This document shows, one piece after another, positions 14,114 to 38,087 of a stretch of 57,370 nucleotides of DNA (the stretch's first letter is position 1; each line of letters begins with the position of its first letter). A program made the translations under genes and the position numbers. The notes under the pieces were generated by a model that was not told the DNA's origin, did no database searches, and saw only the letters and a program-made list of their open reading frames with translations. The DNA lies in contig CANQAT010000001.1 in the NCBI GenBank assembly GCA_947588925.1, forward strand, positions 1 through 57,370. The letters run 5' to 3'. This DNA comes from an uncultured Bacilli bacterium (GTDB lineage Bacteria; Bacillota_I; Bacilli_A; RF39; UBA660).

Positions 14114-15715
14114 ATGATACTAAAAAAGCCTTATGCATTTTTCATTAAAATATTTAAACCATTACATTTAGTACTTGGAATAATTATTTTATATTCAATA
14201 ATTTTAAACAATAAAATATTAGAGTTTTTAAATACTTATCTGCACACTTCTTCTAGCGTTGTTGGACAAAATATACAAAGTACCTATATTAACTCTTTGA
14301 TATTTATAATACCAGTAATTATAATTGTACTTTCTATGATTATTTTGGGTATTATGTTTAGGAAAAAGAAACCAATATCATTTTATCTAATATGTATATT
14401 TGCATTCATTTTTGTCTTAATAATAAACGTTTATACTTCAAATTTCTTAAAAATGTTAGAAAGCTCTATTTTAGCTATTAAATCTATCAAACTTATCCAC
14501 GATTTAGTTTTGATTAACATTATGTTACAAAGTATTATAATGATATTTTTCATAACACGCGGAATGGGTCTTAATTTTAAAAAATTTGACTTTAACTCAG
14601 ATTTATCTAAGTTTGATATAAGTGAAAGCGATAAAGAAGAGTTTGAGGTAAGTGTAAATATAGACTTAGATGAATCAAAAAGACTAAGAAAAGAAAAAAT
14701 AAGAAACATAAAATATTTTTATGTAGAGAATCGTTTTAAAATAAATTTGGGATTAATTATAATTGTCCTTGTATCTTCTATAGTTGGAATTTACGCGTTT
14801 TTTGGAATTAATAAGTCAAAAAATGTAGAAGGAATAACATATTCTATTTCTAATTTTAATATAAAGGTAGATAAAACAACTATCCTAGATAAAGACTATT
14901 TAGGAAATAAGTTTAGTTCTAGTGATGATGTTTTGATCGCTTTAAATGTAGAACTCAGTTCAAATATAGAAAATAAGAATTTATCTTTAAGCAATTTTTA
15001 TCTAAATATAGATTCTACAAAATTTAAACCAACTATTAAATATAACAATCGTTTAATCGATTTAGGAAATGTATACAGCGAGGATACTTTAAATAAAGAA
15101 GCGAAAAATTATATACTTGCATATCAAATACCTTATAAATATGTAAATAGTTCTATGAAACTATCCTATAAAAATTTAGAAGATAGTATCGATATAAGTT
15201 TAAATCCAAAATATATGGAGGATAAATCTAATACCATTGTAAAAAAACTAGGTGATGAAATTTCATTTGAAGATACCCTAGGAGATATTAAATTTAAAAT
15301 AGATAATTATGAAATAGGTAAAAAGTTTTTGGTTAATTATAATTTTTGCCTTACTGGGAATAATTGTAGCCAAAACTGTATTCAAGATGGAAGCTGTATT
15401 TCATCTAGGGAGTATTTAACCCCATCAATAGATACTAATTATAAAAAAGAAGTGTTAAAATTAGATGTCAATTTTTCAAATAATAGTGAAATAAGCTCTA
15501 CTAATTTTTATACATTCTTAAATAAGTTTGGTTCTATAAGTTATAAAATAGGTGATACTTGGAATATTGAGGCTGGAAATTTTGAATATATAGAAAGCAA
15601 AAAAACTAATACTAAAAGTATGCATATAGGTATAAATTCTGCTGTAAGTGGGGCGGATGAGATTAAGCTTGTATTTAATATCAGAGATTATAGATACGAA
15701 TATATTCTAAAGTAG
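14114..15715 (+). CDS. Polytopic membrane protein with a large C-terminal extracytoplasmic domain; first gene of the Tad/T4SS locus
   Basis: About five N-terminal TM helices and another near residue 215, followed by a ~300-aa hydrophilic domain. ATG 14114 has better RBS spacing than 14102. Confidence 0.5.
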   Translation: MILKKPYAFFIKIFKPLHLVLGIIILYSIILNNKILEFLNTYLHTSSSVVGQNIQSTYINSLIFIIPVIIIVLSMIILGIMFRKKKPISFYLICIFAFIFVLIINVYTSNFLKMLESSILAIKSIKLIHDLVLINIMLQSIIMIFFITRGMGLNFKKFDFNSDLSKFDISESDKEEFEVSVNIDLDESKRLRKEKIRNIKYFYVENRFKINLGLIIIVLVSSIVGIYAFFGINKSKNVEGITYSISNFNIKVDKTTILDKDYLGNKFSSSDDVLIALNVELSSNIENKNLSLSNFYLNIDSTKFKPTIKYNNRLIDLGNVYSEDTLNKEAKNYILAYQIPYKYVNSSMKLSYKNLEDSIDISLNPKYMEDKSNTIVKKLGDEISFEDTLGDIKFKIDNYEIGKKFLVNYNFCLTGNNCSQNCIQDGSCISSREYLTPSIDTNYKKEVLKLDVNFSNNSEISSTNFYTFLNKFGSISYKIGDTWNIEAGNFEYIESKKTNTKSMHIGINSAVSGADEIKLVFNIRDYRYEYILK

Positions 15716-15723
15716 GTGACTAT

Positions 15724-16395
15724 ATGATAAAAAATATATTAAAAAAAGCTATATTTATATTTGTAATGTTTTTGTGTAATAAAACTGTATCTGCTCTTTC
15801 CTATGAAGGGTGTGACTATCAAACTATAGCTAATTTAAAAAACGTTATTAACAATATAAATATTTCTTATGACTATCACGAAGAGGACAATCAAGTGTAT
15901 TTTGATGTTACAATAAATAATATAATACCTCAAATTTACTTTGTAGATTCTAATGATGGAAAGACTTATTACTATAGTGATACAAATAGTGGAGAGATAA
16001 CAATTAAAAATTATACATATGCAAGTAACTATAAATTTTATTCAAATATAGATGAATGTAAAGGTCTTTCTATTGGGACTAAATACTATACGTTTCCTAC
16101 ATATAATAGATACTATAACGATCCATTATGTGAGGGAATTAATGACTTTGAGATGTGCAAAAAGTGGGTTAAGAGTAATGTTTCATATGATACATTTGTA
16201 AGTAGTGTTGTTAAATATAAAAATAGTTTTAATAATCAAGCCGTAATAGATGAACCTTTTGAATACGAAGAGAGTTTTAGCGATTATCTTGCAGAACTTT
16301 ACGTAAATTACTATTACTACTTTTTTATAGGCATTATAGTAATATGTGTTACTATAATTCTTATAAGTAGAAGAAAAAATAGATTTAAATTGTAA
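15724..16395 (+). CDS. Secreted cysteine-containing protein with a C-terminal TM anchor
   Basis: Signal-peptide-like N terminus and C-terminal YYYFFIGIIVICVTIILI followed by RRKNR. Confidence 0.5.
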   Translation: MIKNILKKAIFIFVMFLCNKTVSALSYEGCDYQTIANLKNVINNINISYDYHEEDNQVYFDVTINNIIPQIYFVDSNDGKTYYYSDTNSGEITIKNYTYASNYKFYSNIDECKGLSIGTKYYTFPTYNRYYNDPLCEGINDFEMCKKWVKSNVSYDTFVSSVVKYKNSFNNQAVIDEPFEYEESFSDYLAELYVNYYYYFFIGIIVICVTIILISRRKNRFKL

Positions 16396-16455: not shown

Positions 16456-16884
16456 TTGAGAGAGTCTATGTGGGGATATGCTGTTATGGTGTTAGGATTA
16501 CTAGCCATAGGCATAATTTGGTTTTTCGCGAATGCGACTAGAACTGATGAGCACAATTTTAATTTATTAAAAGAAACTGTTGAGGCTGCAATGGCAGATG
16601 CGGTTGATTTAGCAGCTTATAGAGCTGATGGAACTGTAAGAATAGAAGAAGAAAAATTTATTGAAAACTTTATTCGTAGATTTTCAGAAAATGCAGATCT
16701 ATCTAATACATACGTAGTTGAGGTATACGATGTAATTGAGGTTCCACCTAAAGTAAGCATAAGGGTATCAAGTATAAAGTCTCAAAACTTTTCACTACCA
16801 AACAGTCAAAACCCAGATGTTAGTCAAACTTTTGATTTTGATATAGTAAATAATATTGATGAAATACTGGAAACTAAATATTGA
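16456..16884 (+). CDS. Minor pilin / TadE-like candidate sharing the locus prepilin-like leader
   Basis: TTG start behind AGGTGA. The first codons TTGAGAGAGTCTATG are nearly identical to ATGAGAGAGTCTATG at 21502. Leader LRESMWG is followed by a hydrophobic helix. Confidence 0.5.
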   Translation: MRESMWGYAVMVLGLLAIGIIWFFANATRTDEHNFNLLKETVEAAMADAVDLAAYRADGTVRIEEEKFIENFIRRFSENADLSNTYVVEVYDVIEVPPKVSIRVSSIKSQNFSLPNSQNPDVSQTFDFDIVNNIDEILETKY

Positions 16885-16899
16885 GAGGAGAATAAAAAG

Positions 16900-17712
16900 A
16901 TGAATAATTTTGTTATAGGGTTAAAAAGATTTTTTACTAATAAAAATGTTGTAACAATAATTTTAGTTATTGTTATATTAGTTGTATTATATTATGGATA
17001 TAGTGGGAGTATAAAACAAAAAACAGATCCTGTCACTGTCCCAGTAGCTGCAAGAAAGATAGGACCACAGACAAAGCTAACATCAGACGATATCACTTAT
17101 GTTCAAGTAGCTAATAGTATGGTAAGTAAAAATGCACTTAGATATGTTGGAGATATTATTGATAAATATACTAATGTTAATGTTACTATTCCTGAGGGAA
17201 GTATGTTTTATAGTGAATGGTTAGATGTTCCTGAAAATATACCGGGCAACTGGATTGAACAAATAGACCGCGCATCAGGAGATCTTGGATATTACATGAG
17301 TGTTAGTATTGAAAGTACACTTGGTAAATCAGTACTTCCTAATTCATATATAGATATCTATATGAAAGCATTTGATGAAAATGGAACTATTATATTTGGT
17401 AAACTAATGAAAAACGTTAAAGTATTAGTAGTACACGATAGTGCAGGAAATAATATATTTGCTAATCCTGATGAAATTGGTGTTCCTGCAAAAATAGGAT
17501 TTGCTGTAAATAAAGATATGTATATTTTACTTAAAAAAGCAGAATTTTTAAATCTTGAATTAGTTTTAGCTCCTCGTGGATCTGAAGTACCAGCAGAAGA
17601 TTATGCGATAGTTACTAGTGCGACATTAAGAGATTATATTGACGCTCAGACTATAACTGTAGATGATGAGGTAATAACTGATACACCAAATACGGAACAA
17701 GAAGCAAGTTAG
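16900..17712 (+). CDS. CpaB/RcpC-like Flp pilus assembly protein (N-terminal TM plus SAF-like domain)
   Basis: TM anchor, then VPVAARKIGPQTKLTSDDITYVQV, which is typical of a SAF domain. Position is immediately upstream of the Tad ATPase. Confidence 0.6.
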   Translation: MNNFVIGLKRFFTNKNVVTIILVIVILVVLYYGYSGSIKQKTDPVTVPVAARKIGPQTKLTSDDITYVQVANSMVSKNALRYVGDIIDKYTNVNVTIPEGSMFYSEWLDVPENIPGNWIEQIDRASGDLGYYMSVSIESTLGKSVLPNSYIDIYMKAFDENGTIIFGKLMKNVKVLVVHDSAGNNIFANPDEIGVPAKIGFAVNKDMYILLKKAEFLNLELVLAPRGSEVPAEDYAIVTSATLRDYIDAQTITVDDEVITDTPNTEQEAS

Positions 17713-17721
17713 TGAGGAACC

Positions 17722-18843
17722 ATGACTGACAATATATTTGAAGGGATGGACTTTGGGCCTCTTAAAGAATATTTAGACAATGATGATATAACAGATATAT
17801 CTTATAGTAATAATGGACAAATTTGGTTAAGGACCTTATCAAAAGGTATATTTAGAATTGAAAACCCAGCTATAAACAATGCTTTTATAGAAAAACTCGC
17901 TTTTCAATGTTCAAATGTAATGGGTAAAAGCTTTAATGCTGCGCACCCTTTTCTCGATAGTGAAAGTTCTGAACTTCGTATGAATTTCGTACATGATTCA
18001 ATAGCAAGAAATGGAGTAGCATGCGTTATTCGTAAAACACCAGCTAAGATACGTCTTGAAAGAAACAAGATATTAAAAGAAAAATATATTACAGAAGATA
18101 TACTTGACTTTTTAATAACTTGTGTACACGGGCATTGCAATATAATCGTATGTGGAGAAACTGGATCAGGTAAAACTGAATTTGTTAAGTATTTGGCAGC
18201 TCATACATATGAAAATGAAAAGATAATAACTATTGAGGATACTTTGGAGTTGCACCTCGATAAAATATATCCAAATAGAGATATAGTTGCAATGAAAACA
18301 AATAATGTAGCTAGTTATACGGATGTTTTAGTAACTTGTATGAGACAAAATCCTAAATGGATTTTACTATCAGAGGTTCGTAGTGCGGAAGCAGTAATGG
18401 CCGTTAGAAACTCTATTTCATCAGGTCACAATATACTATCTACAATACATGCAGATAAAGCATCTTCTATACCTAATCGTATGTATAGCTTACTTGAGAC
18501 TAACCAAGATATAGACCAGTTTTTAAAATCAATTTATAGATATATACAATTAGGTGTATATATAAGAGGATATCAAGATAGGATTACAAAGCAGTTTGTA
18601 AGGGAAGTAGCGGAAGTAACAGAATTTTATGTAACAGATGATAATGAAGCAAAATATAATACTCTTTATAAAAAAACTCCAGATGGAAAAGTATATAGAA
18701 AGAACCCTAGTAAATATTTAATTGAATATTTAGAGTCTCAGGGTACTATGTTGCCATCAGGATTTATAAAGTCTGAATACGATAACAATTCAGAAGATGT
18801 AGAAGAAACAAAAACAAATTCAAGCGAAATAATTTTTGAATAG
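17722..18843 (+). CDS. CpaF/TadA-type (VirB11 superfamily) secretion ATPase
   Basis: Walker A GETGSGKT, Asp box ITIEDTLEL, Walker B WILLSEVR, His box GHNILSTIHA. Confidence 0.85.
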   Translation: MTDNIFEGMDFGPLKEYLDNDDITDISYSNNGQIWLRTLSKGIFRIENPAINNAFIEKLAFQCSNVMGKSFNAAHPFLDSESSELRMNFVHDSIARNGVACVIRKTPAKIRLERNKILKEKYITEDILDFLITCVHGHCNIIVCGETGSGKTEFVKYLAAHTYENEKIITIEDTLELHLDKIYPNRDIVAMKTNNVASYTDVLVTCMRQNPKWILLSEVRSAEAVMAVRNSISSGHNILSTIHADKASSIPNRMYSLLETNQDIDQFLKSIYRYIQLGVYIRGYQDRITKQFVREVAEVTEFYVTDDNEAKYNTLYKKTPDGKVYRKNPSKYLIEYLESQGTMLPSGFIKSEYDNNSEDVEETKTNSSEIIFE

Positions 18844-18855
18844 GAGAAGGGATTT

Positions 18856-19758
18856 ATGAATATAACTTTACTTTTTATAATTGTTTCTATATTGATTATA
18901 TTTATAATTATATATAGAAGTAGTATGGGTGAGCAAACTTATAAATTTATAAATAAACAATATCGCAGATTATATAGTAAAGTTTCTCCTTATACTTATA
19001 AAGAAATAAGAAAAAAAATTCGTGAATTAAAACAGGATTATACTGTTCAACAATATATTGGACAAGTACTAATATTTGCTCTTGGTGGAGGTATAATATC
19101 ATATCTATATTTTTACAATCTTGTAGTTGCTATAATATATGCAATAGCTGCTGTTGCAGTTGTTCCATATATAAACTACTTAAGATGTAAAAGATTATAT
19201 AGTGAATTTATATTTGAACAAATACAAGTATATACTACTAATACGATAATGGAATTTAATACAACTCAAAGCTTTGTAAAAGCACTAGAGGGTGTTTATT
19301 ATTCAGGAGTATTAGAAGACCCTGTTAAAGCTGATGTTAAAACTATGATAGACATGGCATATGAAAATGGAACCATAAATCAATCATTAGAGTTTATGCA
19401 AGAAAAATATGATTTTTATATGGTTAAGAATATGCACCAGTTGTTTTTACAAATTACTAATGAAGGTGCGAAAGATGTAAGCGATTCTTTAGAGAATATG
19501 TCTCTTGACATAGATATGTTAGTAGAGGCAGTTTATCGTGATAGAATAGATAGAGCAGCATTCTATAAAAAGTTTTTAATATTCGGTTTAGTACTATATT
19601 TAATGATAGGATTAGTTCAAATAATGTTAGGAGATACGTACCACAGTATGCTTGATCTTTGGTATGCGAGATTATTATTACATGTTATAGTCATAATAAA
19701 TTCATATTTCCTAATATCAGGAACAAAATATTATAATGAGAATGTGGGGGCTGAATAA
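18856..19758 (+). CDS. TadB-like platform protein (type II secretion system F family topology)
   Basis: 300 aa with TM, cytoplasmic helical domain and TM-pair architecture. Lies directly after the ATPase. Confidence 0.6.
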   Translation: MNITLLFIIVSILIIFIIIYRSSMGEQTYKFINKQYRRLYSKVSPYTYKEIRKKIRELKQDYTVQQYIGQVLIFALGGGIISYLYFYNLVVAIIYAIAAVAVVPYINYLRCKRLYSEFIFEQIQVYTTNTIMEFNTTQSFVKALEGVYYSGVLEDPVKADVKTMIDMAYENGTINQSLEFMQEKYDFYMVKNMHQLFLQITNEGAKDVSDSLENMSLDIDMLVEAVYRDRIDRAAFYKKFLIFGLVLYLMIGLVQIMLGDTYHSMLDLWYARLLLHVIVIINSYFLISGTKYYNENVGAE

Positions 19759-20549
19759 TGGAATTTGCAATTGTTGCTATAGCAGTTATTCTTATATTTG
19801 TCTGCAATAACATAATTAATCCAAAAAGTATACTTGGTCAGGTTAAACCATGGGTTAGAAGCTTGATGGAAAAAGATTATGAGTTCTTATTAAGAGTAAA
19901 GTATAAGGATAAAGATTTAGATATTAACGCACTATTTTCAAGAAGAATTAGGGATGGAATTTTAATAACAGCTTTTATAATATTTTTACTAGCTATAACA
20001 GGTTATTTAAACTATATGTTTGTAATATTTGCATTTGTTGCTGGTTTCTTGGTATTTAAAAGCAGTTATACAAAATTAAAAGGTTATTATAAAGCCAGAA
20101 TTCACTATATGGATTCTATGTTGCCATATTATTTGAAGAGTTTAGAGATTTTGGTTCAGCACTACACTGTTCCAGTAGCTATCTCAAGGAGTGTTGATAC
20201 AGCTCCTGAAATATTTAGACCGGGGCTTAGGAAGTTAGTTGCTAAAATTGATGAGGGAGATTCTAGTATTCAACCTTATTTGGATTTTGCAAATGAATAT
20301 CCAGTTAGAGATTCAATGAGAATGATGAGACTTTTGTATCGTTTAGGACTTGGTTCTAACGAGGATAAACACGATCAAATAATGATGTTTTCAAAAACGG
20401 TATCATCACTTCAAAATAAAGCTCGTGATATAAAATATAAAGAAAGACTTGAAGGCATGGAAAAAAGAACAATGCTTATGTTATTTGTAACAGGTGGAGG
20501 AGTTTTATTAGTATTATTCATGTCTATGAGTTTGATGATGGGTATATAG
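19758..20549 (+). CDS. TadC-like platform protein
   Basis: 263 aa with the same architecture as the preceding gene. ATG overlaps the upstream stop (TAATG). Confidence 0.6.
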   Translation: MEFAIVAIAVILIFVCNNIINPKSILGQVKPWVRSLMEKDYEFLLRVKYKDKDLDINALFSRRIRDGILITAFIIFLLAITGYLNYMFVIFAFVAGFLVFKSSYTKLKGYYKARIHYMDSMLPYYLKSLEILVQHYTVPVAISRSVDTAPEIFRPGLRKLVAKIDEGDSSIQPYLDFANEYPVRDSMRMMRLLYRLGLGSNEDKHDQIMMFSKTVSSLQNKARDIKYKERLEGMEKRTMLMLFVTGGGVLLVLFMSMSLMMGI

Positions 20550-20581
20550 TGTAAAAAAATGTAAATAATATTAATACAGTA

Positions 20582-20611
20582 TTGATTTTTATATATCTAT
20601 TAAGGTATAAT
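20582..20611 (+). promoter_or_regulatory. Promoter candidate for the Flp-sized pilin gene
   Basis: TTGATT, 18-nt spacer, TATAAT. A strong RBS GGTAGGTGAGG precedes ATG 20651. Confidence 0.5.
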
Positions 20612-20650
20612 ATAGTTAGTTATAGGTATTTAAAGGTAGGTGAGGTTTTA

Positions 20651-20872
20651 ATGAAAGAAGCAGCAGGAGAGGCAAATATGACTGTTATAACAATAGTTTT
20701 AATTGCAATAGTACTTGCAGTTGGAACTGTTATAGTTACTAATCTTATGAATAGTACTTCAAATAGTAGTGCTTGTACAGCATGTGGAGGTTATTGGAAA
20801 GGTGGAAAATGCCAAATTTCTGAAACTAACGCTGCTGAATTAGACTATTCTAGTTGTAAAGGTTCAAAATAA
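20651..20872 (+). CDS. Flp-sized (73 aa) pilin candidate with a cysteine-rich C-terminal tail
   Basis: MKEAAG leader, 25-aa hydrophobic helix, then a tail with five Cys (CTAC..C..C). Has its own promoter and terminator. Confidence 0.6.
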   Translation: MKEAAGEANMTVITIVLIAIVLAVGTVIVTNLMNSTSNSSACTACGGYWKGGKCQISETNAAELDYSSCKGSK

Positions 20873-20903
20873 ATGCTCGTTTTATAACAAGCATTTTTAT
20901 TTA
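20871..20903 (+). terminator. Intrinsic terminator after the pilin gene
   Basis: AAATGCTCGTT / AACAAGCATTT stem with one mismatch, followed by a T-run. Confidence 0.6.
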
Positions 20904-20977
20904 TAGCATTAAAAAATCAACTTTGAGCTATATATGACATTCTTTTGTAAACCCAGATTTATTTATTGATAATATCA

Positions 20978-21007
20978 TTGACAAAATAATTAAATAATTG
21001 GTATAAT
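20978..21007 (+). promoter_or_regulatory. Promoter candidate
   Basis: TTGACA, 18-nt spacer, TATAAT. Confidence 0.5.
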
Positions 21008-21033
21008 TGTTATGATAAAGGTAGGTAATTACA

Positions 21034-21489: not shown

Positions 21490-21501
21490 TGGAGTGATAC
21501 T

Positions 21502-22005: not shown

Positions 22006-22020
22006 AAAGGGGAAATATAA

Positions 22021-23031: not shown

Positions 23032-23060
23032 TTGACAATATTTGGTTTGGTAAGTATAAT
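23032..23060 (+). promoter_or_regulatory. Consensus sigma-A promoter
   Basis: TTGACA (23032..23037), 17-nt spacer, TATAAT (23055..23060). Confidence 0.6.
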
Positions 23061-30912: not shown

Positions 30913-30929
30913 AATAGGAGGTGTTATTA

Positions 30930-32930: not shown

Positions 32931-32937
32931 TGATAAA

Positions 32938-33585
32938 ATGAAGAAATTAGTATTGTTTACTTTTATAGTTCTACTTTTATCTGGATGTACTGCTAATTAT
33001 GAAATTAACTTAAAGGATGATAAAGTAGAGGAAAAACTAACGATTATAGAGACTAATAAAAGCATATTTGATAAAGAACTTGATACAGGGTGGACAATAA
33101 GACAAAGTTTTGAATCAATGCTTGAAGGCGATGAATTTGGTGAGGAGAATTATAATGTTAAATCACTTATTACAGATGATCAACTTGGAATTGAATATAC
33201 ATCCAAATCAGCTCTTTCAATACTAAATTCATCTATTGTAAATCAGTGTTATAGAAACCCAAGTGTATCTATTAGTAATAATATTATATCAATTGATACT
33301 GGTTCTAATTTTGAGTGTTACGACTTTTATGAAAACTTAGAAAGTGTTAGAGTTGTGTTTAAAACAAACCATAAGGTTATTTCAACAAATAGTGATTCTA
33401 AAGAAGGTAATTCTTATATTTGGAATATAACAAAAGATGGAAATAAAACTATTCAAATAACTTATGATGACTCTATAACAAAAAAAAGTATAATACCTTA
33501 TATAATAATAGGTATAGTAGCGGTTGTTATAATAATTTCAGGATGTTTTGTACTTAAAAAAGTAAAAAATAAAAATAGTTTTTAA
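32938..33585 (+). CDS. Lipoprotein with an additional C-terminal TM anchor
   Basis: Lipobox LLLSGC at residues 12-17. C-terminal IPYIIIGIVAVVIIISGCFVL. Confidence 0.6.
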   Translation: MKKLVLFTFIVLLLSGCTANYEINLKDDKVEEKLTIIETNKSIFDKELDTGWTIRQSFESMLEGDEFGEENYNVKSLITDDQLGIEYTSKSALSILNSSIVNQCYRNPSVSISNNIISIDTGSNFECYDFYENLESVRVVFKTNHKVISTNSDSKEGNSYIWNITKDGNKTIQITYDDSITKKSIIPYIIIGIVAVVIIISGCFVLKKVKNKNSF

Positions 33586-33602
33586 ATTTTGGAGGTGAGA
33601 TA

Positions 33603-35033
33603 ATGTTAAAAAAGATTTTATTACTTATAATGGTGTTTTCAACATTATTTTGCCTTAATTTTAATATTGTTTTTGCATATGAATTTATTAATCCTGATAA
33701 TGAGGGATTAGTATATGATAAAATAAATGAAATATATGACGCAAAAGATCAATATGAAGATTTAGCAGGTGATTATGAGGAAGTTACTGTAATAAATGCA
33801 AATAACTTTGCATATTGGTGGCCTGTTGGAAGTGAAGAAACTTTTGAAAAAAATGGGAAATTGTATGCAACTGGAGATCCTATGTCAACTACAGTAACAT
33901 CTACATTTGGTGGAAGAGATGACCCACATGGATCAGGTGCTTCAGATACACATTATGGACTTGATATCGGTAATGGAGGACATAGTGCAGGAGAAGTAAA
34001 TGTTATCGCTACTAAATCAGGAGAGGTAGTATATCCAATAAACCCTTCACAAACATCTTATCAAGATACCTCTAATAGATATGATGGTGGTGGGTACGGT
34101 AATTATGTTAAAATTAAACATAGTGATGGTACTTATACACTCTATGGACATTTAGCTCAAAACAGTATAAGAGTTTTTGCAGGTGAAGTAGTAGAGCAAG
34201 GACAAGTTATAGGTAAAATGGGAACTAGTGGAAACTCGACTGGTGTTCATTTACATTTTGAAATAAGAGTGGGTGCGGATTCTAGCAGGAATGCTGTTGA
34301 TCCAACAAAATATGTAGATAGTGAAAATCCAAGACCTTTAATTTCAGATGGTAGTAATTTTTCAATAAATACAACTACTTTATCTAAAGACGAGTTCGTT
34401 TCAAAAATGAATGATTATTGTGATAGATCAGGTAAAAAAGGTTTCTGTAGTACATTTAAAGAAAATGCAGAAGAGATATATGATGTATCAGTTGCTAATA
34501 ACATTAATCCAGAATTAGTAGTTGTAACAGCAGGAGCAGAGCAAAATTGGTCTTTGAGTTCTGCTTGTAGTTATACCAATAATTATTGGGGAATTGGAAT
34601 AAATAATGGAGAAGGGTGTAACTCAGGAGGAAAGTATTCTTCTCTTAAAGAAGGTATAATAGCTTATTCTAATTTATTATCCGAATATGGAGTAGGTGGT
34701 AAATACGAGGGAGCTATTACTAGCAGATATAATGAAAGAGAAAGTGCTGGATGTGGAATTGAAGGACATGGACTTCCGGGTTCATTAACTGGTATGCAGT
34801 CTATGTATTCTTGGTTAGGAAATTATAGATATAATCCGGGTAACTGGGGACTAGGCGGTTGTTCATATTTGAATGTCATGTATGGAGATTCTTATTGTTC
34901 TACTAAAGTAACTTGTGATGATTACGATAACTGTCCTCAAGAATCTAAGACTACAGTTTGTGAGCAAAATGATTATACAGCTTGGCAAGTACAAACTAAG
35001 TTACAAATTAGATATGATATTTTTGGACTATAG
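33603..35033 (+). CDS. Secreted bifunctional peptidoglycan hydrolase candidate: M23 (LytM) metallopeptidase plus a lysozyme/glucosaminidase-like C-terminal domain
   Basis: M23 motifs HYGLDIG and GVHLHFEI. C-terminal AGAEQNWS ... NNYWGIGI resembles a GH73-type catalytic region. Confidence 0.7.
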   Translation: MLKKILLLIMVFSTLFCLNFNIVFAYEFINPDNEGLVYDKINEIYDAKDQYEDLAGDYEEVTVINANNFAYWWPVGSEETFEKNGKLYATGDPMSTTVTSTFGGRDDPHGSGASDTHYGLDIGNGGHSAGEVNVIATKSGEVVYPINPSQTSYQDTSNRYDGGGYGNYVKIKHSDGTYTLYGHLAQNSIRVFAGEVVEQGQVIGKMGTSGNSTGVHLHFEIRVGADSSRNAVDPTKYVDSENPRPLISDGSNFSINTTTLSKDEFVSKMNDYCDRSGKKGFCSTFKENAEEIYDVSVANNINPELVVVTAGAEQNWSLSSACSYTNNYWGIGINNGEGCNSGGKYSSLKEGIIAYSNLLSEYGVGGKYEGAITSRYNERESAGCGIEGHGLPGSLTGMQSMYSWLGNYRYNPGNWGLGGCSYLNVMYGDSYCSTKVTCDDYDNCPQESKTTVCEQNDYTAWQVQTKLQIRYDIFGL

Positions 35034-35041
35034 GTGGTATT

Positions 35042-35551
35042 ATGGACAAAGAAAAAAGGAATAAAATAATAGCTATAATAATACTAGTAATTGCTATAAT
35101 TGTTGTAATAGTATTAAATATTATATATGGAAATAAATCTAAAGAAGAAGTTATAGATACTAAAACTATTAGTATAGTTAAGGATAATGATGATTTTTTC
35201 ACTGTATCATCTTGTGTTTCTAAATATTTAAACTATTTATCAATTAATGATACAGAAAGTTTACTAACACTTTTAAGTAAAAATTATAAAGAAGAAAACA
35301 ACATTACTTCAAATAATATTTATTCATATATAAAAGATGTATACTCAAATCCTAACTTTTCTCCAAATAAAATGTATGTTCAAAGACTAGGTAAGACTAT
35401 ATATAAATATTATGTTTATGGTACTATAGAGCAAGAAGTTATAAATGAAATAAGTGAAGGTATAGATTATTATATAATTGTCATATTAGATGAATCAAAT
35501 ACGACATTTGCTATAGAACCATATAATGGAGAAATATTTATGAGGAGATGA
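35042..35551 (+). CDS. N-terminally anchored small protein; VirB8/TcpC-like (NTF2-fold) candidate
   Basis: Single TM helix plus a ~130-aa domain with a helix-then-strands pattern. The call rests on position in the T4SS module only. Confidence 0.3.
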   Translation: MDKEKRNKIIAIIILVIAIIVVIVLNIIYGNKSKEEVIDTKTISIVKDNDDFFTVSSCVSKYLNYLSINDTESLLTLLSKNYKEENNITSNNIYSYIKDVYSNPNFSPNKMYVQRLGKTIYKYYVYGTIEQEVINEISEGIDYYIIVILDESNTTFAIEPYNGEIFMRR

Positions 35552-35555
35552 TATA

Positions 35556-36050
35556 GTGAAAAAAACATCGAAGAATATTTTACTTATTGTATTAGTAGGA
35601 GTGTTTGTATTTTTACTAGCATTTTATATAATACGTGAGATTATAGCTAGTAGGGATATTTATGTAGAACCATCTCTAAGAGATGAAGAGTACAATATGG
35701 TACCTAAAGTTTATGATATTAATGAATATTCTAAAGTAGAAATATCTGATCAGCAGATGACTCAAATTTATTTGAATTTATATATAAATGATACTAAAAA
35801 TGATTTAGAAAAGTCTTATAATTCTTTAAATGAAGAATATAGAGAAGCTAAATTTAGTAGTTTTGATGAATATACTTCTTATGTAAATTCAAATAGATTT
35901 TCTAACAATTTATCAAGGTATTATGTAAATTATAAATATGGTGATAAAGTATATTATGCTTATGATAGCAATAATAATCTATATATATTTAAAACAAACG
36001 GTGTTATGCAATACGAGGTATATTTAGATGATTATACGGTAGAAATATAA
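35556..36050 (+). CDS. N-terminally anchored small protein; second VirB8/TcpC-like candidate
   Basis: Same architecture and size as the preceding gene. GTG start. Confidence 0.3.
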   Translation: MKKTSKNILLIVLVGVFVFLLAFYIIREIIASRDIYVEPSLRDEEYNMVPKVYDINEYSKVEISDQQMTQIYLNLYINDTKNDLEKSYNSLNEEYREAKFSSFDEYTSYVNSNRFSNNLSRYYVNYKYGDKVYYAYDSNNNLYIFKTNGVMQYEVYLDDYTVEI

Positions 36051-36059
36051 GGTGATAAA

Positions 36060-38087
36060 ATGAGATTAAGATTTAGAGCAGACGCAAAAGATGTATTAAT
36101 ATTTTGTATATTTGCTGTAGCATGGTTATTTGTAGTTTCATTAGCTGTTGCAAATGTTTCTCTTTTCTTAGATGGAGAATCATTCACACTTAACTTTTTA
36201 ATTGGTTTTAGCTCACACAATATAGCTACAACTCTTATACTTTTCTTTGCTGGAATAATTGCAGCCTTTGCAGGGGTTAAATCTGTATTTATTGAAAAAG
36301 AAGACGATACGACAGGAATAGGACTTGCAATAGGAAAGAAAAAAGAGAAGAATTATTCAAGATGGGCAAGAGATAATGAAATAAAAAAAGGTTTAGATGT
36401 AAAAGCTGTCGATCCTTTAGCTCCTAAAGCTGACGCAGCAGGAATACCACTTATAATGACGCCTAAAAAAGTTTGGGTAGATAATGGTGGGTACCACAAT
36501 ATAGTAATAGGTTCTACTGGTGCCGGAAAAACTCAGACAACAGTTTTGCCTATGGTTAATTTACTTGCTAAACACGATGAATCTATGATTATAACAGACC
36601 CTAAAGGCGAAATATATGAAAACACTGCCAATTATTTAAAGAGTTTAGGATATAATATAGTACTTTTAAACTTCCGTGATCCACAACAAGGAAATGCTTG
36701 GAATCCAATGTATTTGCCATATTCATTATATCAAAGTGACAATATAGATAAGTCAATAGAATTACTTGAAGACTTAGCAGCCAATATTCTTCATGATCCA
36801 ACTGCTAAGGGTCAAGATCCATTCTGGGAAAATACATCTGCAGATTATTTTGCAGGACTTGCATGTGCATTATTCGAAGATGCAAAACCAGAAGAGATCA
36901 ATCTTAATAGTATAAGTTTGATGACTACGGTAGGAGAGGAAAAGCTTGCTAATACAACCTATATAAAAGATTATTTCAGTTATAAAGATCCCGGAAGTAC
37001 TGCATATACTAAAGCTTCTTCCACTTTGATGGCTCCATCAGAAACTAAAGGAAGTATATTATCAGTATTTAAACAAAAAATTCAATTATTCGCTTCACGT
37101 GCTAATCTATCTGAAATGTTATCAAATAATGACTTTGATATGAGAGATATAGGTAGAAAAAAAACAGCTGTATTTATAGTTATTCAAGATGAAAAGACTA
37201 CATATCATTCACTTGTAACAATATTCTTGAAACAGTGCTACGAAACACTTATATCAGTAGCTCAAGAATCTGGAGGAAAACTTCCTCATAGAACAAACTT
37301 CATCCTTGATGAGTTTGCAAACATGCCTCCTTTAAAAGATGTTACTACAATGGTAACTGCAGCTCGTTCAAGAAACATAAGATTTACATTTATCATTCAA
37401 AACTTTGCTCAATTATACGAAGTTTATGGAAAAGAAAATGGTGAAACAATAAAAGGTAACTGTGGTAACATAGTATACTTGATAAGTACAGAGTTATCCG
37501 CACTAGAAGAGATAAGTAAGATGTGTGGAGAGGTAAAATCTAAAGAAAAGGAAAAAACTTCATCCACACCTTTAGTAACTGTAAGTGATTTACAGAGATT
37601 ATCACAGTGGGAAACTATTATATTAAGACTTAGAACAATGCCTTTTAAAACTAAATTAACTCCAAATTTTAAAATGAGTTGGGGTCATAGTTTTCCTAAG
37701 GCTGAATATCCAAAAAGAGAGAAAATACCTGTACAGACTTTTGATTTAAAAAGTTATGTAAATAAAAGAAGAGAAGAAAAAATTAATAGTATGTTAAATG
37801 GGGATTCTGATGTTAAGGGTATGCCATCACCATTTGAAAGAGGACCATTTAATCCATTTATTGGGCCTAATAAGCCAAATGAAGATAAATTTGATGTCGA
37901 TGATCTAGTTAAGAGAATAGACGCTAAAATTGCTGAACTTGAAGAAGAAGAAAGACAAGAAAAGGCTAAATTGGAAAACCAAGATACTATTGATATAAAG
38001 ACAAATGAAAAGCCTGATGTTCAAGAATTTTCTAATGATGAAATTACAGATGATCAATTCTTTGATGATTTCTTCTCAGATGAATAA
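36060..38087 (+). CDS. VirD4/TraG-family type IV coupling protein
   Basis: Two N-terminal TM helices, Walker A GSTGAGKT, Walker B FILDEFANM, acidic C-terminal tail. Confidence 0.85.
   Translation: MRLRFRADAKDVLIFCIFAVAWLFVVSLAVANVSLFLDGESFTLNFLIGFSSHNIATTLILFFAGIIAAFAGVKSVFIEKEDDTTGIGLAIGKKKEKNYSRWARDNEIKKGLDVKAVDPLAPKADAAGIPLIMTPKKVWVDNGGYHNIVIGSTGAGKTQTTVLPMVNLLAKHDESMIITDPKGEIYENTANYLKSLGYNIVLLNFRDPQQGNAWNPMYLPYSLYQSDNIDKSIELLEDLAANILHDPTAKGQDPFWENTSADYFAGLACALFEDAKPEEINLNSISLMTTVGEEKLANTTYIKDYFSYKDPGSTAYTKASSTLMAPSETKGSILSVFKQKIQLFASRANLSEMLSNNDFDMRDIGRKKTAVFIVIQDEKTTYHSLVTIFLKQCYETLISVAQESGGKLPHRTNFILDEFANMPPLKDVTTMVTAARSRNIRFTFIIQNFAQLYEVYGKENGETIKGNCGNIVYLISTELSALEEISKMCGEVKSKEKEKTSSTPLVTVSDLQRLSQWETIILRLRTMPFKTKLTPNFKMSWGHSFPKAEYPKREKIPVQTFDLKSYVNKRREEKINSMLNGDSDVKGMPSPFERGPFNPFIGPNKPNEDKFDVDDLVKRIDAKIAELEEEERQEKAKLENQDTIDIKTNEKPDVQEFSNDEITDDQFFDDFFSDE

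What the first reader, a model, noticed from the sequence alone, without database searches (positions are those of the whole stretch)
14114..38087. 24-kb single-strand locus fusing a Tad-type pilus module to a Gram-positive T4SS module, with no relaxase or integrase in the window
All 24 ORFs from 14114 to 38087 are on the + strand, and most junctions are overlaps or gaps under 30 nt.

The first part (16456..23013) reads as a Tad/type IVc pilus kit. It has a CpaB-like SAF protein, a CpaF/TadA ATPase (GETGSGKT, ITIEDTLEL, GHNILSTIHA), two TadB/TadC-like platform proteins, a 73-aa Flp-sized pilin with its own promoter and terminator, three minor-pilin candidates and a TadZ-like protein.

The second part (23104..38087) reads as a Firmicute-type T4SS. 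It has VirB2-like two-helix proteins, a VirB6/TrbL-like protein, a PrgI/VirB3-like protein, VirB4 (GTSGSGKS, MMVDEAH), two cell-wall hydrolases and a VirD4 coupling protein (GSTGAGKT, FILDEFANM).

Several things are absent from the whole 57-kb window: a relaxase, an integrase or recombinase, replication or partition genes, an LPXTG adhesin or sortase, and a prepilin peptidase. The flanks are core genes: scpA/scpB upstream and rhodanese-rmuC-rnr downstream.

Gram-positive conjugation systems are normally described as pilus-less and carried on ICEs or plasmids together with a relaxase, and Tad loci are normally separate. A chromosomal hybrid with a coupling protein but no relaxase could be a domesticated machine for something other than classical conjugation. 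Possibilities include protein or effector export, or DNA uptake or release, as with the Helicobacter ComB system or the archaeal Ced importer. Only one VirB11-superfamily ATPase is present, so it might serve both halves.
Basis: partly seen in the sequence, partly recalled or inferred. Interest (0 to 1): 0.85.

Follow-up and report, generated by a model that had tools for sequence, protein, structure and literature searches.

The report
Chromosomal secretion machine with built-in pilus kit
A group of uncultured, small-genome gut bacteria all keep, at one fixed chromosomal site, a conjugation-type secretion machine fused to a pilus-building kit but with no DNA-nicking enzyme beside it, which suggests a plasmid transfer apparatus turned into a permanent cell-contact organelle.

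Summary
There are 25 co-oriented ORFs from 14102 to 38087. They include an FlaI/CpaF/VirB11-type ATPase, a VirB6-like protein, VirB4 (split), VirD4, a bifunctional wall hydrolase and VirB2-like proteins. No relaxase, integrase or LPXTG protein lies anywhere in the window.

The "Tad" half is mostly supported:
- A deep-alignment AlphaFold model of the 300-aa membrane protein matches only GspF/PilC platform domains, and the 263-aa protein is its paralog.
- All 22 orthologs of the 270-aa protein weakly hit CpaB.
- Four proteins share an M-[KR]-E-[SA]-x-G leader followed by a hydrophobic helix.
- TadZ is not supported, the Flp G/XXXXEY motif is absent, and no prepilin peptidase was found.

Two points change the interpretation. 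First, the whole locus is syntenic in about 40 species-level MAGs of uncultured gut Bacilli. It sits between scpAB and a rhodanese gene and diverges about as much as those housekeeping neighbours, so it is core and not a decayed ICE. Second, the hybrid layout is not unique. The pLS20, pBS72 and pZB18-type Gram-positive conjugative plasmids carry the homologous block, annotated as "VirB11 plus unknown membrane proteins", next to their T4SS and a MOBP relaxase.

The closest known concept is the relaxase-less chromosomal T4SS of Patescibacteria. The substrate is unknown.

The parts
14102..15715 (+). First gene of the run. 537 aa, polytopic N-terminus plus a large extracytoplasmic domain. Function unknown.
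   Evidence: No Pfam or NCBIfam hit. A 39%-identical homolog sits at the same position after scpA in other species.
15724..16395 (+). 223-aa secreted, Cys-containing protein with a C-terminal TM helix. Function unknown.
   Evidence: No family hit. Conserved position in related loci.
16456..16884 (+). DUF5411 protein, a pilin-like candidate. N-terminus MRESMWG followed by a hydrophobic helix.
   Evidence: PF17424, E 3e-47. The leader motif is conserved in orthologs. The start is fixed by the 23-nt repeat shared with the 21502 gene. The gene before the ATPase on pZB18 also weakly hits DUF5411 (E 0.006).
16900..17712 (+). CpaB/RcpC-like SAF-domain protein with an N-terminal TM helix.
   Evidence: TIGR03177 pilus_cpaB is hit by 22/22 orthologs (best E 1.6e-11; window E 8.5e-5) and flgA_cterm by 20/22. 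All are below the curated cut-off.
17722..18843 (+). The only secretion ATPase of the FlaI/CpaF/VirB11 group in the window.
   Evidence: T2SSE, E 1e-26. NCBIfam: VirB11 117 bits, TadA-conjugal 95, TrbB 93, FlaI 85. PDB: FlaI 68 bits, CpaF 68, HP0525 61. Nearest plasmid relatives are 'CpaF/VirB11 family' genes of Gram-positive conjugative plasmids. Orthologs are 71-91% identical, with the Walker A motif intact in 28/28.
18856..19758 (+). TadB-like platform protein: a single divergent T2SSF-like cytoplasmic domain between TM helices.
   Evidence: No direct Pfam, NCBIfam or PDB sequence hit. A family profile reaches a PF00482 protein at E 1.6e-5. hhalign gives 51% probability. 8/67 family members give weak T2SSF hits. 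The AlphaFold model (pLDDT 76) matches EpsF, PilC and OutF cytoplasmic domains with probability 0.90-0.99 and TM 0.63-0.71. Homologous to the ORF after VirB11 on pBS72.
19758..20549 (+). TadC-like protein, a paralog of the preceding platform protein.
   Evidence: hhalign of its ortholog profile against the TadB-like family: probability 77%, E 2e-5, 159 colinear columns. Weak colinear match to the second ORF after the ATPase on pZB18 (E 0.011).
20651..20872 (+). 73-aa major-pilin candidate.
   Evidence: The N-terminus MKEAAGEANMTVITIVLIAIV is nearly invariant in 32 orthologs, while the C-terminal part is variable and Cys-rich. It has its own promoter-like site and a terminator-like hairpin.
20978..21007 (+). 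Perfect 12/12 extended sigma-70-type promoter match ahead of the minor-pilin genes.
   Evidence: The overall number of promoter-like sites is no higher than in shuffles, so only the perfect matches in intergenic position are noted.
21034..21489 (+). 151-aa minor-pilin candidate (MKESIG plus a hydrophobic helix).
   Evidence: The leader is conserved in 37 orthologs. The ortholog in L002 carries a C-terminal RicinB lectin domain (E 2e-14).
21502..22005 (+). 167-aa minor-pilin candidate (MRESMG plus a hydrophobic helix).
   Evidence: The leader is conserved in 37 orthologs.
22021..23013 (+). 330-aa cytoplasmic protein. The TadZ/ParA-like reading is not confirmed.
   Evidence: No Pfam, NCBIfam or PDB hit. 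1/36 orthologs hits CbiA at E 0.046. hhalign against a ParA-like protein aligns only the P-loop region (E 0.008, probability 5%), and the Walker lysine is missing. The protein is well conserved, mostly 50-85% identical to the window protein, down to 35-37% in two lineages.
23032..23060 (+). Perfect 12/12 promoter match ahead of the VirB2-like gene array.
23104..23949 (+). VirB2-like protein with a large Cys-rich ectodomain.
   Evidence: Shares the two-TM C-terminal domain (VPIILI..G..DL.K...A.KEDE.KKGQ..FIKRLV) with four paralogs.
23953..24435 (+). VirB2-like protein, 160 aa.
   Evidence: T4SS_pilin PF18895, E 0.002. Paralog alignment. 72% nucleotide-identical repeat with the previous gene.
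24447..25562 (+). 371-aa bitopic extracytoplasmic protein. Function unknown.
   Evidence: No hit. Present in 34 related loci.
25624..26025 (+). VirB2-like protein, 133 aa.
   Evidence: Paralog alignment.
26135..28273 (+). VirB6/TrbL-like channel protein with a long C-terminal extension.
   Evidence: TrbL_4, 34 bits, above cut-off. Mycoplasma ICE families NF045848 and NF045889.
28291..28611 (+). VirB3/PrgI-like protein.
   Evidence: PrgI, E 0.004. Aligns to positions 2-95 of the fused Mycoplasma VirB4 model.
28589..29128 (+). VirB4 N-terminal domain as a separate ORF.
   Evidence: NF045975 positions 104-276. The split with ATGA or TAATG overlap is conserved in 36/36 loci.
29125..30912 (+). VirB4 ATPase domain.
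   Evidence: NF045975, 353 bits, positions 295-891; CD1110 family, 186 bits. Orthologs are 78-96% identical, with both Walker motifs present in 36/36.
30921..32930 (+). 669-aa protein with a mid-sequence TM helix and a C-terminal Cys/His domain. Possible second wall hydrolase.
   Evidence: No profile hit. Proteins at the same position in L035 and L043 carry CHAP domains. Inference only.
32938..33585 (+). Lipoprotein with a C-terminal TM helix.
   Evidence: Lipobox. One to three paralogs in related loci.
33603..35033 (+). Bifunctional peptidoglycan hydrolase, the VirB1 equivalent.
   Evidence: Peptidase_M23, E 5e-22; Glucosaminidase, E 9e-5.
35042..36050 (+). Two paralogous bitopic proteins (169 and 164 aa). 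VirB8-like by size and topology only.
   Evidence: They align with each other. No Pfam or PDB match.
36060..38087 (+). VirD4 coupling protein with an invariant acidic-aromatic C-terminal tail.
   Evidence: NF045973, 296 bits, above cut-off; T4SS-DNA_transf, E 3e-57. The tail ..DD.FFDDFF is conserved in 13/13 orthologs after a hypervariable linker.
40171..41244 (+). Additional VirB2-like paralog outside the finding's interval.
   Evidence: PF18895, 27.8 bits, above cut-off. Alignment.
49154..50167 (+). Additional VirB2-like paralog outside the finding's interval.
   Evidence: PF18895, E 0.001. Alignment.

Best explanation
The locus is a vertically inherited chromosomal relative of the pLS20/pBS72/pZB18-type Gram-positive conjugation apparatus. 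It is one machine made of two parts.

(a) A type-IV-filament (Tad/archaeal-type) module. It comprises one FlaI/CpaF/VirB11-group ATPase, two single-domain T2SSF-like platform proteins, a CpaB-like SAF protein, and four proteins with a short M-[KR]-E-[SA]-x-G leader plus a hydrophobic helix.

(b) A monoderm T4SS. It comprises VirB3, a split VirB4, VirB6, a wall hydrolase, VirD4 and several VirB2-like proteins.

Inferred working model:
1. The ATPase and platform pair assemble the small pilin, with minor pilins that in some species carry lectin domains, into a filament or pseudopilus. This crosses the wall and captures a partner cell.
2. The hydrolase opens the wall locally.
3. VirB4, VirB6, VirB3 and the VirB2-like proteins form the channel.
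4. VirD4 feeds in a cytoplasmic substrate, recruited through its conserved acidic-aromatic tail.

No relaxase, oriT or recombinase is linked to the locus in the window or within the sequenced stretch of any related locus. The locus sits at a fixed core position. It therefore does not mobilise itself and is kept as a host organelle for contact-dependent transfer.

Shown: gene content, homologies, synteny, conservation. Inferred: filament assembly, leader cleavage, direction and nature of the substrate.
For: - Component identities.
- Platform fold.
- CpaB-like protein.
- Shared leader motif in four families across 18-37 orthologs each.
- Synteny of the whole block in about 40 species-representative MAGs, with ATPase 71-91%, VirB4 78-96% and VirD4 45-94% identity.
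- scpBA upstream in at least five species groups and rhodanese downstream in six loci plus the window.
- Locus proteins diverge about as much as the neighbours. Against L002, scpA is 74%, scpB 68%, ATPase 86% and TadB-like 79% identical. Against L011, rhodanese is 73%, rmuC 83% and VirD4 86% identical.
- No att-like repeats and no sharp compositional break.
- Catalytic motifs are intact in all orthologs.
- The VirB4 split is conserved in 36/36 loci.
- The homologous ATPase-platform-small-protein block lies inside plasmid conjugation operons (PMC8557374 lists pLS20 genes 36-41 as VirB11 plus unknowns).
- Surface parts are variable while the motor is conserved.
Against: - No prepilin peptidase is in the window, and cleavage after the conserved Gly is unproven.
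- The pilin lacks the Flp EY motif and the Glu5 of classical type IV pilins.
- T2SSF homology rests on weak sequence signals and on a model of moderate confidence; the Foldseek E-values are about 1 even though probabilities are 0.9-0.99.
- TadZ and VirB8 equivalents are not demonstrated.
- A relaxase could lie elsewhere in these genomes; only plus or minus 10 kb was seen in relatives.
- There are no expression or phenotype data.
- The order-level taxonomy of the hosts is not established here.
Confidence: 0.6

Rival explanations
1. The locus is still a DNA-conjugation machine. It works with a relaxase and oriT encoded elsewhere in the genome, or with an unrecognised DNA-processing enzyme. It would serve mobilisable elements or chromosomal transfer, as Mycoplasma ICE-encoded T4SSs do in mycoplasma chromosomal transfer.
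For: - VirD4 of the CD1115 conjugal family scores above its cut-off.
- VirB4 and VirB6 score best against Mycoplasma ICE families. For those elements the cited review lists only VirD4-, VirB4-, VirB6- and VirB3-like components as recognisable homologs of the VirB-type machinery, and they move chromosomal DNA (PMC12857230).
- The conserved acidic-aromatic VirD4 tail resembles the F TraD tail that docks the relaxosome protein TraM (own knowledge).
- Integrated elements with recombinases sit just beyond scpB in relatives.
Against: - No relaxase lies within the 57-kb window or within the sequenced stretch (up to plus or minus 10 kb) of any of the roughly 40 related loci.
- There are no ssb, primase, topoisomerase or other DNA-processing genes of the kind seen beside the plasmid versions.
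- A fixed core position in an entire clade is unusual for a conjugation system.
Confidence: 0.27
2. Two independent systems happen to be neighbours: an adhesive Tad-type pilus and a separate T4SS.
For: - Internal promoters precede the pilin genes and the VirB2 array.
- Tad pili alone exist as conserved clusters in other uncultured gut Firmicutes (TANB77, PMC11680825).
Against: - The same juxtaposition and order are kept in about 40 species.
- The juxtaposition recurs inside single conjugation operons on unrelated plasmids of Bacillus, Enterococcus and others.
- Only one VirB11-group ATPase is present.
- The ATPase's nearest relatives are the plasmid T4SS-linked ones, not stand-alone CpaF.
Confidence: 0.07
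3. A DNA-uptake or DNA-release system, like ComB of Helicobacter, Ced of archaea or the gonococcal GGI.
For: - It is chromosomal and has no linked relaxase.
- It has a type-IV-filament module of the kind used for DNA uptake elsewhere.
- rmuC lies two genes downstream.
Against: - The review groups DNA-uptake systems among the T4SSs that lack a VirD4-like coupling protein (PMC12857230), whereas VirD4 here is among the best conserved genes.
- No ComEC- or ComEA-like gene is in the locus.
- rmuC adjacency is seen in only one other locus.
Confidence: 0.04
4. A decayed, immobilised ICE remnant with no current function.
For: Conjugation-type genes are present without a relaxase or integrase.
Against: - All 25 ORFs are intact.
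- Walker motifs are intact in all orthologs.
- The motor proteins are 71-96% identical across species (VirD4 45-94%).
- The locus is at the same position relative to scpAB and rhodanese.
- There are no att repeats.
Confidence: 0.02

Closest known systems
Conjugation operons of pLS20-family (pLS20, pBS72) and pZB18-type Gram-positive plasmids
   Same: The order is comparable. On pZB18 it runs: a small N-terminal-TM protein (a weak DUF5411 hit on pZB18), a VirB11/CpaF-type ATPase, two membrane proteins of about 240-280 aa, small N-terminal-TM proteins, a VirB2-like protein, then VirD4, VirB6, VirB3, VirB4 and a bifunctional hydrolase. On pBS72 the two membrane proteins flank the ATPase instead. 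An adhesin gene heads the operon in some relatives. The ATPase and the TadB-like protein are demonstrably homologous to the window's (PMC8557374).
   Different: - The plasmids carry a MobP2 relaxase, replication genes and regulation genes; the window locus has none and is chromosomal and core.
- The T4SS half here is closer to Mycoplasma ICE families than to pLS20 (VirB4 only 21% identical to the pZB18 VirB4).
- VirB4 is split into three ORFs.
- A CpaB-like protein and multiple VirB2-like paralogs are present.
- In the papers read here, the plasmid genes are listed as 'unknown', not as Tad-like.
Chromosomal T4SS of Patescibacteria (Saccharibacteria)
   Same: Both are monoderm MPF-FATA-type T4SSs encoded on the chromosome of small-genome, uncultured or host-dependent bacteria. 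Both usually lack a relaxase and have arrays of divergent VirB2-like T4SS_pilin (PF18895) genes (PMC12102498, PMC12857230).
   Different: - The host phylum differs.
- Here a type-IV-filament module with its own ATPase is built into the same locus, whereas in Saccharibacteria the T4P loci are separate.
- Essentiality and epibiosis are shown there and unknown here.
- The phylogenetic relation of the VirB4s was not tested.
Tad (type IVc) pilus systems
   Same: Both have an ATPase of the FlaI/CpaF clade, two single-domain platform paralogs, a CpaB-like SAF protein, a very small pilin, and pseudopilins sharing its leader motif.
   Different: - There is no G/XXXXEY Flp motif.
- No TadV peptidase is in the window.
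- TadZ is not confirmed.
- No curated Tad model reaches its cut-off.
- The module is physically and evolutionarily tied to a T4SS.
Mycoplasma ICE (MICE) T4SS
   Same: These are the best-scoring NCBIfam families for VirB4 (NF045975) and VirB6 (NF045848, NF045889). For MICE the cited review lists only VirD4-, VirB4-, VirB6- and VirB3-like components as recognisable homologs of the VirB-type machinery. The host clade is related to Mycoplasmatales (PMC12857230; PMC10868615).
   Different: - Scores are below the equivalog cut-offs.
- In MICE, VirB3 and VirB4 are fused; here they are split.
- MICE are mobile and, from my own knowledge, carry a DDE recombinase. They have no wall hydrolase and no filament module.
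IncI (R64) thin pilus plus T4SS, and the PAPI-1 island
   Same: These are precedents for a type IV pilus cooperating with a T4SS or with VirB4/VirD4 for transfer, especially in liquid (PMC12857230).
   Different: They are Gram-negative and use type IVb pili with their own full gene sets. The two systems are encoded in separate clusters, and relaxases are present.

Membership tests
Tad / type IVc pilus (type IV filament superfamily) | TadA/CpaF-type secretion ATPase | tested here: inconclusive
   T2SSE passes its Pfam cut-off (93.7 against 24.9 bits). The sub-family is ambiguous: VirB11 117 bits, TadA-conjugal 95, TrbB 93, FlaI 85, all far below their cut-offs. In PDB, FlaI and CpaF score about equally and both above HP0525.
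Tad / type IVc pilus (type IV filament superfamily) | TadB/TadC platform proteins with a T2SSF domain | tested here: inconclusive
   No direct Pfam, NCBIfam or PDB-sequence hit. Support comes from a profile hit to a PF00482 protein at E 1.6e-5, hhalign at 51% probability, weak T2SSF hits in 8/67 members, Foldseek matches only to EpsF, PilC and OutF domains at probability 0.90-0.99, and paralogy of the two proteins.
Tad / type IVc pilus (type IV filament superfamily) | Flp pilin with the G/XXXXEY processing motif | tested here: not met
   The N-terminus is MKEAAG/EANMTVITIV with no EY. It does have a short leader ending in a conserved Gly before a hydrophobic helix, shared with three other proteins.
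Tad / type IVc pilus (type IV filament superfamily) | Dedicated prepilin peptidase (TadV/FppA, family A24) | tested here: not met
   None found among ORFs of 90 aa or more in the window. The rest of the genome could not be searched.
Tad / type IVc pilus (type IV filament superfamily) | CpaB/RcpC SAF-domain protein | tested here: inconclusive
   TIGR03177 is hit by 22/22 orthologs, colinear over about 145 residues, best E 1.6e-11, but below the 71-bit cut-off.
Tad / type IVc pilus (type IV filament superfamily) | TadZ/CpaE (receiver-like domain plus atypical ParA/MinD ATPase) | tested here: inconclusive
   No Pfam, NCBIfam or PDB hit. Only a 29-column P-loop-region match to a ParA-like protein (E 0.008, probability 5%), with the Walker lysine absent.
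Monoderm (MPF-FATA-type) conjugative T4SS | VirB4 ATPase | tested here: met
   AAA_10, P-loop_TraG and DUF87 are above their cut-offs. NF045975 scores 353 bits and CD1110 186 bits. It is encoded as N-domain and ATPase-domain ORFs.
Monoderm (MPF-FATA-type) conjugative T4SS | VirD4 coupling protein | tested here: met
   NF045973 scores 296 bits against a 250-bit cut-off. T4SS-DNA_transf scores 195 bits.
Monoderm (MPF-FATA-type) conjugative T4SS | VirB6-like polytopic channel protein, VirB3/PrgI-like protein and a wall hydrolase | tested here: met
   TrbL_4 scores 34.2 against 27 bits. PrgI is weak (E 0.004) but aligns to the VirB3 part of the fused Mycoplasma model. M23 plus Glucosaminidase are present.
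Monoderm (MPF-FATA-type) conjugative T4SS | VirB8-like (NTF2-fold) bitopic protein | tested here: inconclusive
   There are two paralogous bitopic proteins of the right size (35042-36050) but no profile or PDB match.
Self-transmissible conjugative element (ICE or plasmid) | Relaxase and oriT linked to the T4SS | tested here: not met
   No relaxase family hit for any ORF of the window. Nothing relaxase-like was seen among extra ORFs in about 40 related loci: all were inspected by eye and ten were scanned with Pfam.
Self-transmissible conjugative element (ICE or plasmid) | Integrase or recombinase, att repeats, and empty sites in relatives | tested here: not met
   No recombinase in the window. 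There are no flanking direct repeats beyond chance. Every relative examined has the locus at the same place.
pLS20-family conjugation operon | Homologs of genes 36-41 (VirB11 plus flanking membrane and small proteins) next to VirD4, VirB6 and VirB4 | tested here: met
   The ATPase's best plasmid hits are this family. The TadB-like family links to the pBS72 ORF at E 2e-14 to 5e-7 through intermediates and to Enterococcus, Bacillus and Clostridium proteins. The gene table is in PMC8557374.
pLS20-family conjugation operon | MobP2 relaxase, Rco/Rap/Phr regulation, plasmid replicon | tested here: not met
   Absent from the window; present on pBS72 and pZB18.
Patescibacteria-type chromosomal T4SS | Chromosomal, relaxase-less, with several VirB2-like T4SS_pilin genes | tested here: met
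   Five paralogs share the PF18895-type domain, one of them above the cut-off. No relaxase is present, and the position is core.
Patescibacteria-type chromosomal T4SS | VirB4 inside the Patescibacteria clade; essential for epibiotic growth | not testable with these tools

The most novel reading that the evidence does not exclude
A type-IV-filament module is an integral, so far unrecognised part of a whole class of monoderm T4SSs: the pLS20-family and pZB18-type plasmids and this locus. In a clade of small-genome gut Bacilli related to Mycoplasmatales, the combined machine has been domesticated. It would be a core, relaxase-independent organelle for attaching to another cell and exchanging material with it, a Firmicute counterpart of the essential T4SS of epibiotic Patescibacteria. 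That would imply that these abundant uncultured gut bacteria live in obligate physical association with partner cells.
Probability: 0.2. Interest if true: 0.9.

Novelty: new variant of a known kind. Interest (0 to 1): 0.72.

Why it matters
1. It gives a second, independent case, outside Patescibacteria, of a conjugation-type T4SS fixed in the chromosome of reduced-genome uncultured bacteria without a linked relaxase. That points to a general route by which small-genome symbionts reuse conjugation machines.

2. It suggests that the "VirB11" of pLS20-type plasmids is the motor of a Tad-like filament module with platform proteins and pilin-like subunits. These genes are listed as unknown in the pLS20 family description. 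How Gram-positive donors find recipients without a recognised pilus is an open question, and pLS20 needs a fluid environment for transfer (PMC11730352). The homologous genes can be deleted and imaged directly in Bacillus subtilis.

3. The variable, Cys-rich or lectin-bearing surface parts and the invariant VirD4 tail give concrete handles for finding the target and the substrate.

Tried and rejected
- Direct Pfam and NCBIfam scans of the two platform-like proteins, the three small proteins and the TadZ-like protein gave nothing.
- Ortholog-profile searches against PDB sequences gave nothing for the TadB-like, TadC-like, TadZ-like, CpaB-like and VirB8-like sets.
- hhalign between the shallow TadB-like and TadC-like profiles matched only the N-terminal TM helix.
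- hhalign of the shallow profiles against single plasmid proteins was negative or marginal.
- The first AlphaFold model, from a shallow alignment of sequences at least 78% identical, was poor (pLDDT 55). Its Foldseek hits were meaningless and were discarded.
- Pfam on remote representatives of the TadB-like family gave nothing.
- tblastn of window proteins against pZB18 found only the ATPase, VirB4 and VirD4.
- The TANB77 'conserved pilus cluster' paper was checked as a possible prior description. It was rejected because it describes a different layout (a fused TadB-TadC protein, seven pilin-like proteins of 143-236 aa, no T4SS genes in the passages retrieved).
- Literature searches for RF39 or uncultured Bacilli combined with T4SS or pili found no description of this locus.
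- Rfam and ARAGORN found only tRNA-Leu.
- A direct-repeat search found no att-like pair.
- The count of promoter-like sites is no higher than in shuffles, so only the two perfect matches are reported.

Full report
**What is there**

The window has about 27% G+C. From 14102 to 38087 there are 25 consecutive + strand ORFs. Nineteen of the 24 junctions are overlaps or gaps under 30 nt.

Profile searches identify the following:
- a secretion ATPase (17722-18843; T2SSE, E 1e-26);
- a VirB6/TrbL-like protein (26135-28273; TrbL_4 above cut-off);
- a PrgI/VirB3-like protein (28291-28611);
- VirB4 (29125-30912, preceded by its N-domain as a separate ORF ending at 29128);
- an M23 plus glucosaminidase hydrolase (33603-35033);
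- a VirD4 coupling protein (36060-38087; NF045973 at 296 bits, above cut-off).

Five proteins share a two-helix C-terminal domain of the T4SS_pilin (PF18895) type. Three are inside the locus and two are outside it, at 40171-41244 and 49154-50167. One of them passes the Pfam cut-off.

Nothing in the 57 kb resembles a relaxase, recombinase, replication or partition protein, sortase, LPXTG protein or A24 peptidase. No att-like direct repeats flank the locus.

**Is the first half really Tad-like?**

The ATPase is equidistant from FlaI and CpaF in PDB (68 bits each), ahead of VirB11 HP0525 at 61 bits. Its best NCBIfam model is VirB11, far below cut-off. It belongs to the FlaI/CpaF/VirB11 group but cannot be placed more finely.

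The 300-aa and 263-aa membrane proteins gave no hit in Pfam, NCBIfam or PDB sequence profiles. A first AlphaFold model from a shallow alignment was useless.

An exhaustive representative search found only 249 relatives among 1.84 billion proteins. Several remote full-length relatives match the ORF directly after the VirB11-like gene of plasmid pBS72, at E 2e-14 to 5e-7. A profile including these remote members gave further evidence:
- It recovered "hypothetical" proteins of Enterococcus, Clostridium, Bacillus, Niallia and Virgibacillus, and one PF00482 (T2SSF) protein at E 1.6e-5.
- hhalign to that T2SSF protein covers the cytoplasmic domain (probability 51%).
- Eight of 67 family members give weak T2SSF hits.
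- With this deeper alignment the model reached pLDDT 76 and pTM 0.70.
- The only Foldseek matches with high probability (0.90-0.99; target TM 0.63-0.71; rmsd 3.2-3.5 Å) are the cytoplasmic domains of EpsF/GspF, PilC and OutF, although the E-values are about 1.

The 263-aa protein is a paralog of this family (hhalign 77%, E 2e-5, 159 columns). I conclude that the two proteins are divergent single-domain T2SSF-like platform proteins, as TadB and TadC are. The confidence is moderate.

The 270-aa protein hits the CpaB model in 22 of 22 orthologs (best E 1.6e-11) and the FlgA SAF model in 20 of 22, always below cut-off.

Four families begin with M-[KR]-E-[SA]-x-G followed by a hydrophobic helix in essentially all orthologs. 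They are the 73-aa protein, the 151-aa protein, the 167-aa protein and the DUF5411 protein. A 23-nt repeat fixes the DUF5411 start at TTG 16456. This looks like a short class-III-type leader. However, the Flp EY motif is absent, and no peptidase is at hand.

The TadZ assignment failed every test. Only the P-loop region aligns to a ParA-like protein, and the Walker lysine is missing.

**Comparative genomics**

A scan of one genome per species found 42 loci. Nearly all are from MAGs labelled uncultured Bacilli, Bacillota or Tenericutes, from rabbit, human, mouse, ruminant and other animal guts. One is a closed 1.54-Mb chromosome.

tblastn of all window proteins shows the same gene order from DUF5411 to VirD4 in about 40 of them. 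Identities are:
- ATPase 71-91%
- TadB-like 64-89%
- VirB4 78-96%
- VirD4 45-94%

The pilins, VirB2-like proteins, VirB6 tail and hydrolases vary much more.

scpB-scpA lies immediately upstream in at least five species groups. The DNA beyond scpB differs from one to the next: serine recombinase, PcfJ/K, or Abi. A rhodanese gene follows VirD4 in six loci as well as in the window.

Neighbouring housekeeping genes diverge about as much as the locus. Against L002, scpA is 74% and scpB 68% identical. Against L011, rhodanese is 73% and rmuC 83% identical. Walker motifs are intact throughout. The three-ORF arrangement VirB3 / VirB4-N / VirB4-C, with ATGA or TAATG overlaps, is kept in 36 of 36 loci.

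The region between the TadZ-position gene and VirB6 holds a variable number of signal-peptide, Cys-rich and VirB2-like genes. Several species-specific additions point to diversifying surface parts on a conserved motor:
- In one species the 151-aa minor pilin has gained a RicinB lectin domain.
- In another a YfhO glycosyltransferase sits next to the pilin gene.
- In others a SpaA-domain adhesin heads the locus.

**The hybrid is not unique**

The nearest plasmid homologs of the ATPase are "CpaF/VirB11 family" genes of Gram-positive conjugative plasmids from Enterococcus, Listeria, Lactococcus, Bacillus, Virgibacillus and Paraclostridium.

On pZB18 the ATPase is followed by two membrane proteins of about 240-280 aa; on pBS72 two such proteins flank it. 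Small N-terminal-TM proteins lie nearby (one on pZB18 is a weak DUF5411 hit). On pZB18 the block is followed by a VirB2-like gene. Both plasmids also carry VirD4, a pLS20_p028-type VirB6, a VirB3-like protein, VirB4, a bifunctional hydrolase and a MobP2 relaxase.

The description of the pLS20 family lists gene 37 as a putative VirB11. It notes this as unusual for Gram-positive systems, and it lists genes 36 and 38-41 as unknown membrane proteins (PMC8557374). I found no paper in the library that reads this block as Tad-like.

The T4SS half of the window is closer to Mycoplasma ICE families than to pLS20 (VirB4 only 21% identical to the pZB18 VirB4). This fits a host clade near Mycoplasmatales. 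RF39, RFN20 and ML615J-28 are such orders, with walled and sporulating members (PMC10868615). The exact order was not determined here.

**How it most likely works**

Shown: the parts list, the homologies, and core, vertical conservation.

Inferred:
1. The single ATPase and the TadB/TadC-like pair assemble the 73-aa protein and three minor subunits into a wall-spanning filament or pseudopilus that mediates contact.
2. The hydrolase or hydrolases open the wall.
3. VirB4, VirB3, VirB6 and the VirB2-like proteins form the channel.
4. VirD4 delivers a cytoplasmic substrate.

The extreme C-terminus of VirD4 (..ITDDQFFDDFF..) is invariant in 13 of 13 orthologs, after a hypervariable linker, and is absent from the plasmid VirD4s. 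By analogy with the F TraD tail (my own knowledge) it should dock a conserved partner.

Because the locus has no linked relaxase, oriT or recombinase, it does not move itself. Whether it exports protein, or moves DNA with a relaxase encoded elsewhere, cannot be decided here. I put about 0.6 on the domesticated contact-dependent transfer organelle and about 0.27 on trans-acting DNA conjugation or chromosomal transfer. The remaining rivals are minor.

**Comparison with known systems, and novelty**

The closest known mechanism and relatives are the pLS20/pBS72/pZB18-type conjugation systems. The closest known concept is the chromosomal, mostly relaxase-less T4SS of Patescibacteria, with its VirB2-like pilin arrays, which is essential for epibiotic growth of a Saccharibacterium (PMC12102498, PMC12857230).

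The locus fails the membership tests for a self-transmissible element and for a canonical Tad system: no Flp motif, no peptidase in the window, and TadZ not confirmed. It passes those for a monoderm T4SS.

I rate it a new variant of a known kind. It is interesting for two reasons. It extends T4SS domestication to abundant gut Bacilli. It also makes the role of a filament module in Gram-positive conjugation directly testable in pLS20.

**Limits**

- No whole genome of the clade could be searched.
- Structure-based evidence rests on one model of moderate confidence.
- No expression or functional data exist.

Noticed in passing
window 38040-38087 (C-terminus of VirD4): The last roughly 14 residues (ITDDQFFDDFFSDE) are invariant in all 13 complete orthologs, although the preceding 60 or so residues are hypervariable. 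The tail is absent from the pZB18 and pBS72 VirD4 proteins. It looks like a docking peptide for an unknown partner.
   Followed up: partly
window 40171-41244 and 49154-50167: Two further VirB2-like / T4SS_pilin paralogs with large Cys-rich ectodomains lie among housekeeping genes, outside the finding's interval. The system's parts are therefore not all in one block.
   Followed up: partly
window 28291-30912; 36 related loci: VirB3-like, VirB4 N-domain and VirB4 ATPase domain are three overlapping ORFs (ATGA or TAATG junctions) in every relative. The best-matching Mycoplasma ICE model has all three fused in one 894-position protein.
   Followed up: yes
L002:13340-14269; L034:3543-6023; L054:2395-5151: There are species-specific additions to the filament half. 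These are a RicinB lectin domain on the 151-aa minor-pilin ortholog, a YfhO-family glycosyltransferase between the platform genes and the pilin gene, and a 918-aa SpaA-domain protein at the head of the locus.
   Followed up: partly
window 11150-12656; L003, L005, L052 upstream of scpB: The DNA just beyond scpB and tRNA-Leu(CAA) differs between relatives: Abi_2 in the window, and a large serine recombinase or PcfJ/PcfK/DnaB-like genes elsewhere. It looks like an integration hot spot, separate from the locus.
   Followed up: partly
window 16448-16470 and 21494-21516: A 23-nt repeat (91% identical) covers the ribosome-binding region and the first codons (M-R-E-S-M) of the DUF5411 gene and the 167-aa minor-pilin gene.
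   Followed up: yes
L041:9203-9739; L042:7833-8690: A ToxN toxin gene and a RhuM/Fic gene are inserted in the variable VirB2-like region of two distant relatives.
   Followed up: no
window 50286-53385: A transposase fragment (DUF772) lies next to a restriction-modification pair: an NgoFVII-like endonuclease, and a neighbouring ORF read from its sequence, without a profile scan, as a cytosine methyltransferase.
   Followed up: no
window 45672-46523: An ORF read from its sequence as smpB (not profile-scanned) is present, but neither ARAGORN nor Rfam finds a tmRNA gene anywhere in the window. The 405-nt gap after it has no assigned feature.
   Followed up: no
L046 (OZ007038.1 102931-124298 of 1538818): In the one closed chromosome the locus lies about 0.1 Mb from coordinate 1. 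If that record starts at dnaA, the position would echo the origin-proximal T4SS of some Patescibacteria. This could not be checked.
   Followed up: no
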